Shown: positions 39,901 through 42,900 of the stretch, piece by piece
How positions within the stretch are numbered: the first letter of the stretch is position 1
Layout of the letters: each line of letters opens with the position of its first letter
Assembly: GCF_044647545.1 (NCBI RefSeq)
Contig: NZ_CP172818.1
Length of the DNA: 64,000 nucleotides
Reading direction: 5' to 3' (one strand)
Source of the DNA: Escherichia coli
Lineage (GTDB): Bacteria > Pseudomonadota > Gammaproteobacteria > Enterobacterales > Enterobacteriaceae
Made by a program: the position numbers

Positions 39901-42900
39901 CAGATGGAATTCACCATAATGGGATATATGGTTTCTGGTTATAATCCATATCAGATTGCTGAAGTTCTGGATATGGATATCCGTAGCATCTACGCGTACA
40001 AGCAACGAATCGAAAAGAGAATGGGTGGTAAAATCAACGAGTTATTTATTCGTTCACATTCGGTCCAACATTGATACTCAACAATCTGCCAGAATCATAC
40101 TCTGCTTATACGGGCATCTATTGAAATGCCCGTATTTTACAAATAAGCAGTAACCCCAAGAGTAAATAACATGGTATTTAAAACCATCATACGAAAAATT
40201 CAGAAGCATTACGAAATATGAATTTACAAACAATAGTGGCATAAATGTTAATCATGTTAATTTACGTAAAGTTTTACGTTGCGACATTAAAGCGTCATTT
40301 CAATCATTATGATAAATATAAAATTAATATATATTTATGTCGTAAATACCAATATACTTAGCAAACTATGTGATTTCCATTTCGATTGATTTAGTGTCTA
40401 TTGACGTATGTACTGGATTATTAACGATAATATCGAGTTCTGGCCTGAGCACCGAAAATTAATATCGGTACATAACGCCGATCTTAACGTCGTTCTGACA
40501 ACGCCAGCCAGTCGTTGTTTATCACTTCTACTTGAAGCTTTTCCTGATGTGGTTGCACAACAAGATTTTTTCACCAGAGTCTGGGAAGAAGAAGGTATGC
40601 GTGTGCCAACTAACACGTTATATCAGAACATATCCATTATCAGACGCGGATTTCGCGCTGTTGGTGATACCACCCACTCGCTTATTGCAACCGTGCCGAG
40701 AAGAGGATTCAAGATTCATAATGACATTAACATACAAAATCATGCAATAAACTCTTCAACAGACGCACATACACACAATGCCCCACCTGCCGTAAAAGGT
40801 AATGCGGGGTACAAAGAGAGCATTGGTGGCGCAAACAATTTCAATAACAAAATCCTCAAACATATAAAAAGTTATCTAATTATGTTGAGCATATTTGCTA
40901 TAGGCGTATATTCTGCACATTGGCTATGGAATAATAATCAACCGAAGCCATTCTTCAAGGATTACAAGACTGTTGCGGAAATTAATGGCTGCCATTTTAA
41001 TGTGACAGAAGATACAATTGATGGGTTGAAAGAGTTCGATAAATATAAGACACGGATACTGGATTCGGGGATTAACTGTAAAAAATATCCGTGGTTATAC
41101 TTCCCTCTTGCAAAATCCTCACCAGGGATGATTGTTATGGCATGCAATAAAAACTATAACCAACATGAAGTGGCAGGCTGTTTAACCCTGTCTTACCGTG
41201 AGGCTAATCGTGATTGATTATAAAAAAAACTTATTATTTATTTTAGTTTTTATCAGTGGGTTTATTCTCTTCATTGTTTACTCTTATACTGCAGAAAAAA
41301 TGATATATAATGAAACATGCACTGCAAATTGGGTAATTTTTAATGACAAGGGGCGAGCAAATCTTACCATCGACTTTATGTATAACCAAAAAAATAAAAC
41401 AGGAACTGTTGCGTTGAGCGGAACCTGGCAACAAGGTAACAGAGAAAGTAAGTCAATACGGCGAAATATTGAATACACATGGATTGAAAACTATGACACA
41501 GCCCATTTAACATCAAAGAAAGTTAATAAATTTGAGATCATGGATCAAGTCGATGATGATAGACTTGCAGAACTTATTCCTGATTTTTATGTCTTTCCAG
41601 AAAAAAGTGTAAGCTATAATATACTAAAGTAAGGTAAGCATGCTTTTATTTTGAGTATTGGTAACAGAGCAATAATGCATTGTACAAGGTAAACTTAAAT
41701 AGATAACAAAAAGATGGAACCTCGCTAATCATAAAACAATAAAATTAAATATGCTTGTAGTATATGCCAGTATAAAGCATCAAAGTTTTGATCAACATCT
41801 TTCATTTTAGATATCACCTTGCAATGTAAAATATCATGTATCAACAACATCTGGTGCAAATCCATGAGTCGAACTCAACATTCATCTTAGCTCTATTATT
41901 ATTCCTTCGTACAGTCGATGTAAACAATACAGAAAGAGGATTATTAAGAACCAGTTTACTTAGAGAATCAATAGAGGAAAGGACTAACGTTTCTTTAAAA
42001 GAATTGATTTCATCATCTGTTAAACTAAACTCATCATTGACAGATCGTGAGATATAACTGTTTTTAACTTTACTCTTTACGTTGACTTTACTGACAGAAT
42101 TAACATTCACATATCTTGAATTTAGTACCCATGATGTTGTTTGCGTGAGAACCTTCTCAGCATTAAGGAATTTTTTTAACGGAATCCTTGGTTTCTTTTT
42201 CGAGTCCGAATTTACAATATCATGCATATAGACCATTTCATGAATCTGCGAAAACTCAATGTCCATTATATACCTCACATTTTTACCGTGACTCGATGTT
42301 ACTGTTCAATAATCACCTTCCATCAATACTAAATTTAATACCCCTAATGTGCCGATAACAAATATAGTCATTCTACGTAACGTCTCCATAAGGTGATAAC
42401 CTTGATCAAATGAATTTCGAAAATAATAAAGGAAATCTTTTAGATTTTTCACAAATAAAGTTATTTATTTACCAATATCATTTCGATTCACACTATTATC
42501 TTTTTTTAAAAATAAAAAAAAAAATAATTATTAAATAAAAAAAAAAAAATAATAAAAAAAAAAAAAAAAAAAAGAAATTTTAAAAAAAAAAAAAAAAAAA
42601 AGGTGATATTTGACATTATCAGAAGCTGCGAATTCGGATTTTGCTCTAATCAAATGAGAGAAATGTAAAATGAAGCCACGAAATATTAATAATAGCCTAC
42701 CACTGCAACCATTAGTTCCTGATCAGGAGAACAAAAATAAGAAAAATGAAGAGAAATACGTGAATCCAGTTAAAATTACGATGAGGTCTGGTTTAAATTA
42801 TATTGAACAAGAATCTCTTGAAGGAAAATATCTAACACATGATTTGTCAATAAAGATAGCGGATATTTCTGAAGAAATAATTCAGCAAGCAATATTATCG

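What the first reader, a model, noticed from the sequence alone, without database searches (positions are those of the whole stretch)
42507..42601. Compound poly(A) block (A12-A13-A20-A20) 69 bp upstream of ygeF
Homopolymers longer than ~10 nt are very rare in E. coli chromosomes, yet here four A runs of 12-20 nt sit within 95 bp, punctuated only by single T or G. Such tracts are strongly curved and typical H-NS or Fis nucleation sites, and are prone to slipped-strand mispairing, so they could act as a length-variable promoter or spacer switch for ygeF and the downstream ETT2 genes. They could equally be an assembly or base-calling artefact, or a scar of the island's foreign origin.
Basis: seen in the sequence. 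Interest (0 to 1): 0.65.

Follow-up and report, generated by a model that had tools for sequence, protein, structure and literature searches.

The report
Poly(A) block is a sequence artefact
The four long A runs upstream of ygeF are really in this record, but they are a garbled copy of an ordinary, conserved AT-rich spacer found intact in every related E. coli genome, so they are almost certainly a sequencing or assembly error and not a regulatory switch.

Summary
The runs exist: A11, A13, A20 and A20 at 42514-42601, 68 nt before the ygeF ATG, far beyond chance. They are unique to this record.

- **Background:** apart from 8 small differences and a K-12-type IS2/ETT2-core replacement, the window is identical to E. 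coli MS6198 (ST648-like). 55 more differences are packed into 42441-42597.
- **Native sequence:** 1101 of 5426 complete genomes carry an ordinary AT-rich sequence here, all at least 95% identical to each other. None has the block. The nearest relative found has the native version.
- **One-way damage:** all 76 native A's are kept. G, then C, then T are deleted or turned into A. There are no insertions. Damage worsens from left to right.
- **Location:** it lies wholly inside the 227-nt segment that K-12 lacks and stops at that segment's right edge.
- **K-12 architecture:** the window also has K-12's exact IS2 copy and ETT2-core deletion junctions, on ST648-type flanks.

This points to a K-12-templated consensus that failed across an insertion. 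The slippage, H-NS nucleation and foreign-scar readings are not supported.

One real feature turned up nearby: the A18 tract upstream of ygeG (43324-43341) varies from A10 to A35 among close relatives.

The parts
42508..42601 (+). The reported compound poly(A) block: A5-T-A11, A13, A20 and A20, separated by short T/G-containing remnants.
42441..42599 (.). Full extent of the damaged stretch relative to the native sequence. It begins with isolated G deletions at 42441 and ends as pure A at the edge of the segment.
   Evidence: There are 55 differences from MS6198 here, against 8 in the other ~62.5 kb aligned.
42399..42599 (.). Segment that K-12-type genomes lack. It is 201 nt in the window and 227 nt in native form. 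Its first 42 nt (42399-42440) are perfect.
42390..42398 (+). Left copy of the 9-bp direct repeat AAGGTGATA that bounds the segment deleted in K-12-type genomes.
   Evidence: the two BLAST segments overlap by 9 nt in K-12.
42600..42608 (+). Right copy of the 9-bp direct repeat AAGGTGATA. The sequence is again identical to relatives from here on.
41841..42266 (-). yqeK, the divergent upstream neighbour. It is intact and identical to MS6198.
42670..43161 (+). ygeF (163 aa), intact and identical to WP_022646070.1 of MS6198 and FDAARGOS_497.
48494..49824 (.). IS2 copy identical to K-12's (0 of 1331 differences), at K-12's exact ETT2-core deletion junctions but with ST648-type flanks. This supports a K-12-type template for this record.
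   Evidence: The nearest natural relatives have the intact core.
43324..43341 (+). A18 tract 56 nt upstream of the ygeG ATG. This is a genuine tract that varies in length among relatives. It is not part of the artefact and serves as the contrast case.

Best explanation
The poly(A) block is not a feature of the organism. It is a corrupted rendering of an ordinary, conserved 227-nt AT-rich segment of the yqeK-ygeF intergenic region.

The most likely cause is that this record's sequence was built or polished against a K-12-type template, which lacks that segment. The consensus across the resulting long insertion then drifted out of register. The first ~42 nt are correct. Isolated G's drop out next, then C's, then T's, while A, the commonest base, wins every ambiguous column. 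The last 90 nt become almost pure A, and the stretch ends 26 nt short. At the right edge of the insertion the sequence re-anchors and is perfect again.

Shown:
- The block is unique to this record.
- The damage is directional and composition-biased.
- It coincides with the K-12 indel.
- The window has K-12 architecture.

Inferred: the actual pipeline and sequencing technology.
For: - **Background:** apart from 8 small differences and the K-12-type IS2/ETT2-core replacement, the window is identical to MS6198. That is 8 differences in ~48.3 kb on the left and 0 in 14,176 nt on the right. By contrast, 55 differences sit in 197 nt at 42441-42597, about 2,200 times the background density.
- **No other genome has it:** of 5426 complete E. 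coli genomes, none has the block or an intermediate form. The best full-length match to the 246-nt region is 78%. No genome covers more than 57% of the core.
- **The native version is stable:** it is present in 1101 genomes, all at least 95% identical. It has the same length in the eight other long-allele genomes read directly.
- **The nearest relative is native:** a Logan assembly shares the otherwise private SNP at 48005. It has the native segment and an intact ETT2 core.
- **Mutation spectrum:** 76 of 76 A's are kept. Of 34 G's, 6 are kept, 17 deleted and 11 changed to A. Of 23 C's, 11 are kept. Of 64 T's, 49 are kept. There are no insertions. Fisher's exact test for A versus non-A retention gives p = 4.5e-15.
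- **Direction:** damage grows from left to right and shrinkage accumulates: -4, -7, -10, -23, -26 nt.
- **Position:** the damaged stretch lies entirely within the segment absent from K-12 and ends at its right boundary. The chance of that by random placement is about 5e-5.
- **K-12 architecture:** the window has K-12's IS2 with 0 of 1331 differences and identical deletion junctions, while the flanks are ST648-type to within 20 nt of the junction.
- **Gradient by insertion size:** relative to K-12, the 73-nt insertion is intact, the 227-nt one is garbled and the 16.9-kb one is missing. That gradient is what a read-length-limited templated consensus would give.
- **Another error-like change:** recB carries a C7-to-C6 homopolymer frameshift.
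- **Simulation:** a naive unaligned-insertion majority vote on the native segment gives error onset at ~40-60 nt and A runs of 16-19.
Against: - No reads are available, so the artefact is inferred, not seen.
- The naive simulation also produces T runs of ~16 and little shortening. The record has T7 at most and is 26 nt shorter. So the exact mechanism, which has an A-only bias, is not reproduced.
- No K-12 alleles bleed through at single-base level. The two private SNPs checked, 47210 and 48005, are not K-12 alleles, and 48005C is real in other assemblies.
- The source record could not be identified.
Confidence: 0.86

Rival explanations
1. The block is a genuine allele private to this strain. 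Some localized biological process would have converted or deleted non-A bases over ~160 bp.
For: The block is present in the record. The same lineage has a real A10-A35 tract upstream of ygeG, so replication slippage on A runs does operate at this locus. The window also has a few other private changes nearby: 47210 and the IS2/deletion.
Against: It would need about 55 separate events in 197 nt against 8 in ~62.5 kb. There are no insertions at all, whereas slippage expands tracts. Every A is spared (p = 4.5e-15). The damage grades in one direction and stops at the K-12 indel boundary, which has no biological meaning in a strain that carries the segment. The closest relatives carry the native sequence. 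No known bacterial mutational process gives G/C/T-to-A changes plus single-base deletions (established knowledge).
Confidence: 0.07
2. The block is a real, slippage-prone promoter or spacer switch, or an H-NS/Fis nucleation site, that controls ygeF and ETT2.
For: The A20 run ends 8 nt upstream of a TTGACA hexamer (42610-42615), where an UP element would sit (read directly). H-NS silences ygeH and ETT2 expression in strain 042 (PMC4210603).
Against: This reading requires the tract to be real (see the rival above). There is no length polymorphism at this site in 1101 genomes, because no tract exists there. No -10 partner or any promoter-like site is found on the + strand between the block and ygeF. 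Runs of 11-20 A are not phased short A-tracts, and long poly(dA:dT) is rigid, not curved (established knowledge). About 2490 genomes lack the whole segment.
Confidence: 0.03
3. The block is a divergent allele imported by recombination from a distant Escherichia lineage, or a scar of the island's foreign origin.
For: ETT2 alleles differ by ~5% between lineages, so recombination in the region is plausible.
Against: The block is colinear with the native sequence and differs only by loss of non-A bases, not by ordinary divergence. A 37-mer of the window allele is absent from one genome of each of ~100,000 species and from JGI metagenome contigs. It is absent from all 5426 complete E. coli genomes.
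Confidence: 0.02

Closest known systems
Consensus or polishing artefacts at long insertions and low-complexity AT-rich sequence in reference-guided or pileup-based assemblies
   Same: The feature is private to one record. It is one-directional and composition-biased, with the majority base winning. The result is shortened. Damage starts some tens of nt into an insertion relative to a template and ends exactly at the insertion's far edge. The template's architecture (IS2 and deletion) is retained.
   Different: The simple unaligned-vote model does not reproduce the A-only bias or the 11% shortening. The pipeline, technology and reads are unknown.
Homopolymeric simple-sequence-repeat contingency loci, such as the promoter or 5'-CDS poly-A/T/G/C tracts of Neisseria, Haemophilus, Campylobacter and Helicobacter
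   Same: Long mononucleotide runs lie just upstream of a gene in a virulence-associated island.
   Different: There is no length polymorphism among relatives, because the tract is absent from all of them. The block arose by replacement of non-A bases, not by expansion. The neighbouring ygeG tract does behave like such a locus.
The native yqeK-ygeF intergenic region of ETT2, in its long allele and its K-12-type short allele
   Same: Same position, same flanks and the same 9-bp repeats. The first 42 nt, all 76 A's and several landmarks (the T6 and T5 runs, CACACTAT, TTACCAATATC) are shared.
   Different: Relative to the native long allele, 55 of the 121 non-A bases are deleted or changed (54 to A or deleted, one C to T), and the stretch is 26 nt shorter.
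Adenine-directed mutagenesis by diversity-generating retroelements (DGRs)
   Same: The differences between the two versions fall almost only at positions where one version has A.
   Different: The two versions are orthologous alleles in different genomes, not a template/variable repeat pair in one genome. There are 26 single-base gaps. The conserved version is the one that would have to be the variable copy. Nothing in the window suggests a retroelement. This was considered from the pattern alone and rejected.

Membership tests
Phase-variable homopolymeric SSR (contingency locus) | Tract length differs among closely related strains or within populations. | tested here: not met
   None of the 1101 genomes that carry the segment has a tract at this site. 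The native segment is at least 95% identical in all of them and constant in length in the eight other long-allele genomes read directly.
Phase-variable homopolymeric SSR (contingency locus) | The tract arose and changes by gain or loss of repeat units (slipped-strand mispairing). | tested here: not met
   Relative to the native sequence there are 0 insertions, 26 single-base deletions and 28 substitutions to A.
Phase-variable homopolymeric SSR (contingency locus) | The tract lies in a promoter spacer, between regulatory sites, or in the 5' coding region of the controlled gene. | tested here: inconclusive
   The block ends 68 nt before the ygeF ATG and 8 nt before a TTGACA hexamer. No -10 partner or promoter-like site was found on the + strand.
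Phase-variable homopolymeric SSR (contingency locus) | Tract length changes expression of the gene. | not testable with these tools
   This needs reporter fusions or expression data.
Curved-DNA / H-NS nucleation site | Short A-tracts (4-6 nt) phased with the helical repeat, or a high-affinity H-NS motif. | tested here: not met
   The runs are 11, 13, 20 and 20 nt with irregular spacing. Curvature needs phased short tracts (established knowledge). No motif scan for H-NS was available.
Curved-DNA / H-NS nucleation site | H-NS occupancy in vivo or in vitro. | not testable with these tools
   Only the ygeH promoter of strain 042 has published H-NS binding (PMC4210603).
Sequencing / assembly artefact | Present in one record only, while the closest relatives have ordinary sequence at the same place. 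| tested here: met
Sequencing / assembly artefact | An error pattern that is directional and composition-biased, unlike evolutionary divergence. | tested here: met
Sequencing / assembly artefact | Coincides with a structural difference from a likely template, with other signs of templating or error in the record. | tested here: met
   The damage is confined to the K-12-absent segment and ends at its edge. K-12's IS2 and deletion junctions sit on ST648-type flanks. recB has a homopolymer frameshift.
Sequencing / assembly artefact | Raw reads disagree with the consensus. | not testable with these tools
   The source record and its reads could not be identified.

The most novel reading that the evidence does not exclude
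The block is a genuine allele private to this strain. An unknown, locally confined mutational process would have erased G, C and T in favour of A across ~160 bp of an H-NS-silenced island. That would place an extreme A11-A13-A20-A20 array directly upstream of a -35-like hexamer of ygeF, in the position of a giant UP element or a nucleosome-free-like rigid spacer.
Probability: 0.05. Interest if true: 0.65.

Novelty: not a real feature. Interest (0 to 1): 0.1.

Why it matters
It matters mainly as a caution. A striking low-complexity block in a virulence island would invite stories about phase variation and H-NS. Comparison with close relatives shows it is a record-specific corruption. The same record also misrepresents the ETT2 core, showing K-12's IS2 and deletion on an ST648-like background. 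ETT2 isoform typing from this record would therefore be wrong.

The useful positive result is nearby. The A tract upstream of ygeG really does vary (A10-A35) among near-identical ST648-like genomes.

Tried and rejected
- **Slipped-strand expansion.** Rejected: there are no insertions relative to the native sequence.
- **DGR-like adenine mutagenesis.** The pattern resembles it superficially. Rejected because these are orthologous alleles, there are 26 gaps, and the polarity is wrong.
- **The K-12-absent segment as a mobile element (MITE) with a 9-bp target duplication.** Rejected: it is single-copy in the genomes that have it, with a median of 1 place and a maximum of 2. K-12's state is better read as a deletion between 9-bp direct repeats.
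- **Known RNA families.** None found in 41500-44300 even at E <= 1.
- **Promoter and terminator scan.** Nothing on the + strand between the block and ygeF, and no excess over shuffles.
- **Finding the source record or a second copy of the allele.** All came back empty. These were exact 37-mer scans of genome contigs and metagenome contigs and exact-protein look-ups of the IS2-junction ORF. Of the latter, one search was mis-specified by me and one search was the corrected version. Two spurious ORFs made by the block and the private K5I regulator variant were also not on record.
- **K-12 reference bleed-through at SNP level.** Not seen at 47210 or 48005.
- **Simulation of an unaligned-insertion majority vote.** It reproduces the onset distance and the A16-19 runs, but not the A-only bias or the shortening. 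The precise technical mechanism stays open.
- **Literature.** No report of homopolymer tracts in ETT2. One search was a malformed query.

Full report
**Observation.** The window holds A5-T-A11 (42508-42524), A13 (42537-42549), A20 (42554-42573) and A20 (42582-42601). The first long run is A11, not A12, and 42507 is a T. The block lies between yqeK (minus strand, 41841-42266) and ygeF (plus strand, 42670-43161) and ends 68 nt before the ygeF ATG. Apart from an A18 at 43324-43341, no other homopolymer in the 64 kb exceeds A9. An A11 word occurs 32 times against 0.29 expected from shuffles.

**Where the window comes from.** The 8.4 kb immediately to the left matches many ST648-like E. coli genomes at 100.0%, among them MS6198, ECONIH1 and IMT16316. 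Against MS6198, window 1-48493 shows 63 differences. Of these, 55 fall in 42441-42597 and 8 fall elsewhere. Window 49825-64000 is identical over 14,176 nt. The difference density inside the block is about 2,200 times that outside it.

**What relatives have at this place.** Three states exist among 5426 complete E. coli genomes.
- About 1100 genomes carry a long allele.
- About 2490 genomes carry a K-12-type short allele. It lacks a 227-nt segment plus one copy of a 9-bp direct repeat, AAGGTGATA.
- The remaining genomes have no match at all.

The long allele is ordinary AT-rich sequence with no run longer than A7. It is present in 1101 genomes: 571 are at least 99% identical to the MS6198 version and 530 are 95-99% identical. 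It has the same length in the eight other long-allele genomes I read directly. No genome has the window's version or anything intermediate. The best full-length match to the 246-nt region is 78%, and no genome covers more than 57% of the core. A 37-mer from the mildly damaged left part is absent from one genome of each of ~100,000 species and from JGI metagenome contigs.

The nearest relative I could find is a Logan assembly (ERR3831990). It shares the otherwise private SNP at 48005 and differs at one other base in 9 kb. It has the native segment.

**Anatomy of the difference**.
- Aligned to the native 197 nt, all 76 A's are retained.
- Of 34 G's, 6 are kept, 17 deleted and 11 changed to A.
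- Of 23 C's, 11 are kept, 4 deleted, 7 changed to A and 1 changed to T.
- Of 64 T's, 49 are kept, 10 changed to A and 5 deleted.
- There is not one insertion.
- A versus non-A retention gives p = 4.5e-15.
- The damage is graded. The first 42 nt of the K-12-absent segment are perfect. Then isolated G's vanish (42441-42500), then C's, then T's. The last ~50 nt are pure A except for a G-AAA-TTTT remnant of the native GAGCGATTTTT.
- Shrinkage accumulates steadily: -4, -7, -10, -23 and finally -26 nt.
- At 42600, the right copy of AAGGTGATA, the sequence is again identical to relatives.

This is not what slippage, ordinary divergence or recombination produces. Slippage adds repeat units, divergence would also hit A's, and recombination would bring in a block of unrelated differences.

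**Link to K-12.** The damaged stretch lies wholly inside the segment that K-12 lacks, and it ends at that segment's right boundary. The chance of such an end point by random placement is about 5e-5.

Independently, the window has K-12's architecture further right. An IS2 at 48494-49824 has 0 of 1331 differences from the K-12 copy. It sits at exactly K-12's junctions and replaces the 16.9-kb ETT2 core. The flanks are ST648-type, with two differences from K-12 within 20 nt of the left junction. No complete genome combines these features, and the nearest natural relatives have the intact core. Homologous import of the K-12 deletion would have brought K-12 flanks with it. An independent event identical to the base is improbable.

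Relative to K-12, the record renders a 73-nt insertion perfectly, a 227-nt insertion with progressive garbling, and a 16.9-kb insertion not at all. That gradient fits a read-length-limited consensus built on a K-12-type template. A C7-to-C6 frameshift that truncates recB at codon 326 of 1180 is another error-like change.

**Mechanism, and how far it is shown.** I simulated the simplest version: noisy reads of the native segment, stacked left-justified without realignment, then a column-by-column majority vote. It gives a first error 40-60 nt in, and A runs of 16-19 from a native maximum of A7. At the right end it gives an architecture much like the record: an A run, G, a T run, then an A run. 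It also gives T runs of ~16 and little shortening, which the record does not show. So the exact process has an A-only preference that I cannot name. It could be a neural polisher, or a caller that defaults to A on weak support. That the block is technical is well supported. The particular pipeline is inferred.

H-NS does silence ygeH and ETT2 in strain 042 (PMC4210603), and the whole region is 25-31% GC. But the site shows no length variation, because no tract exists there in any relative. No promoter-like site lies between the block and ygeF, and no known RNA family matches. Runs of 11-20 A are not phased curved-DNA tracts.

**A genuine feature nearby.** The A18 at 43324-43341, 56 nt upstream of the ygeG ATG, is real and varies.
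- Record spans imply A10 to A27 across ~58 ST648-like and phylogroup-F complete genomes, with nearly every length from 13 to 27 represented.
- Other assemblies with an identical YgeF have A13, A14, A23 and A35.
- The nearest relative has A24 against the window's A18.
- K-12 and O157 have an interrupted ATAAAAATA at this place.
- No paper in the searchable library mentions it.

**Verdict.** The runs are in the record but almost certainly not in the organism. Interest in the finding as given is low.

Noticed in passing
window 43324-43341: A genuine hypervariable poly(A) tract lies 56 nt upstream of the ygeG start. It is A18 here. Record spans imply A10-A27 in ~58 ST648-like complete genomes. Other assemblies have A13, A14, A23 and A35, and the nearest relative has A24. 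K-12 and O157 have ATAAAAATA instead. When the tract length is a multiple of 3, an upstream ATG (43320) reads in frame into ygeG through a poly-lysine stretch. No literature was found.
   Followed up: partly
window 48494-49824, with junctions at 48493/48494 and 49824/49825: An IS2 identical to the K-12 copy (0 of 1331 differences) sits at K-12's exact ETT2-core deletion junctions, but with ST648-type flanks. No complete genome combines these, and the nearest relatives have the intact 16.9-kb core. This is most likely template carry-over, so the ETT2 isoform shown by this record is suspect.
   Followed up: partly
window 7001-7007: A C7-to-C6 change relative to MS6198 shifts the recB reading frame at codon ~303, with a stop at codon 326 of 1180. 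It is either a homopolymer sequencing error or a recB-null strain.
   Followed up: partly
window 42390-42398 and 42600-42608: 9-bp direct repeats AAGGTGATA bound the 227-nt segment that about 2490 K-12-type genomes lack. The K-12 state looks like a repeat-mediated deletion just upstream of ygeF, and ygeF is annotated as frameshifted in the K-12-type genomes examined.
   Followed up: partly
window 47210: A private T-to-A change gives K5I in the LuxR-type regulator at 46591-47223 (minus strand). It is absent from MS6198, four other relatives and K-12, and the variant protein is not on record in the large gene collection. The other nearby private change, 48005 T-to-C, is real in three Logan contigs.
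   Followed up: partly
window 51109-51181: A 73-nt segment absent from K-12 is present here and identical to MS6198.
   Followed up: no
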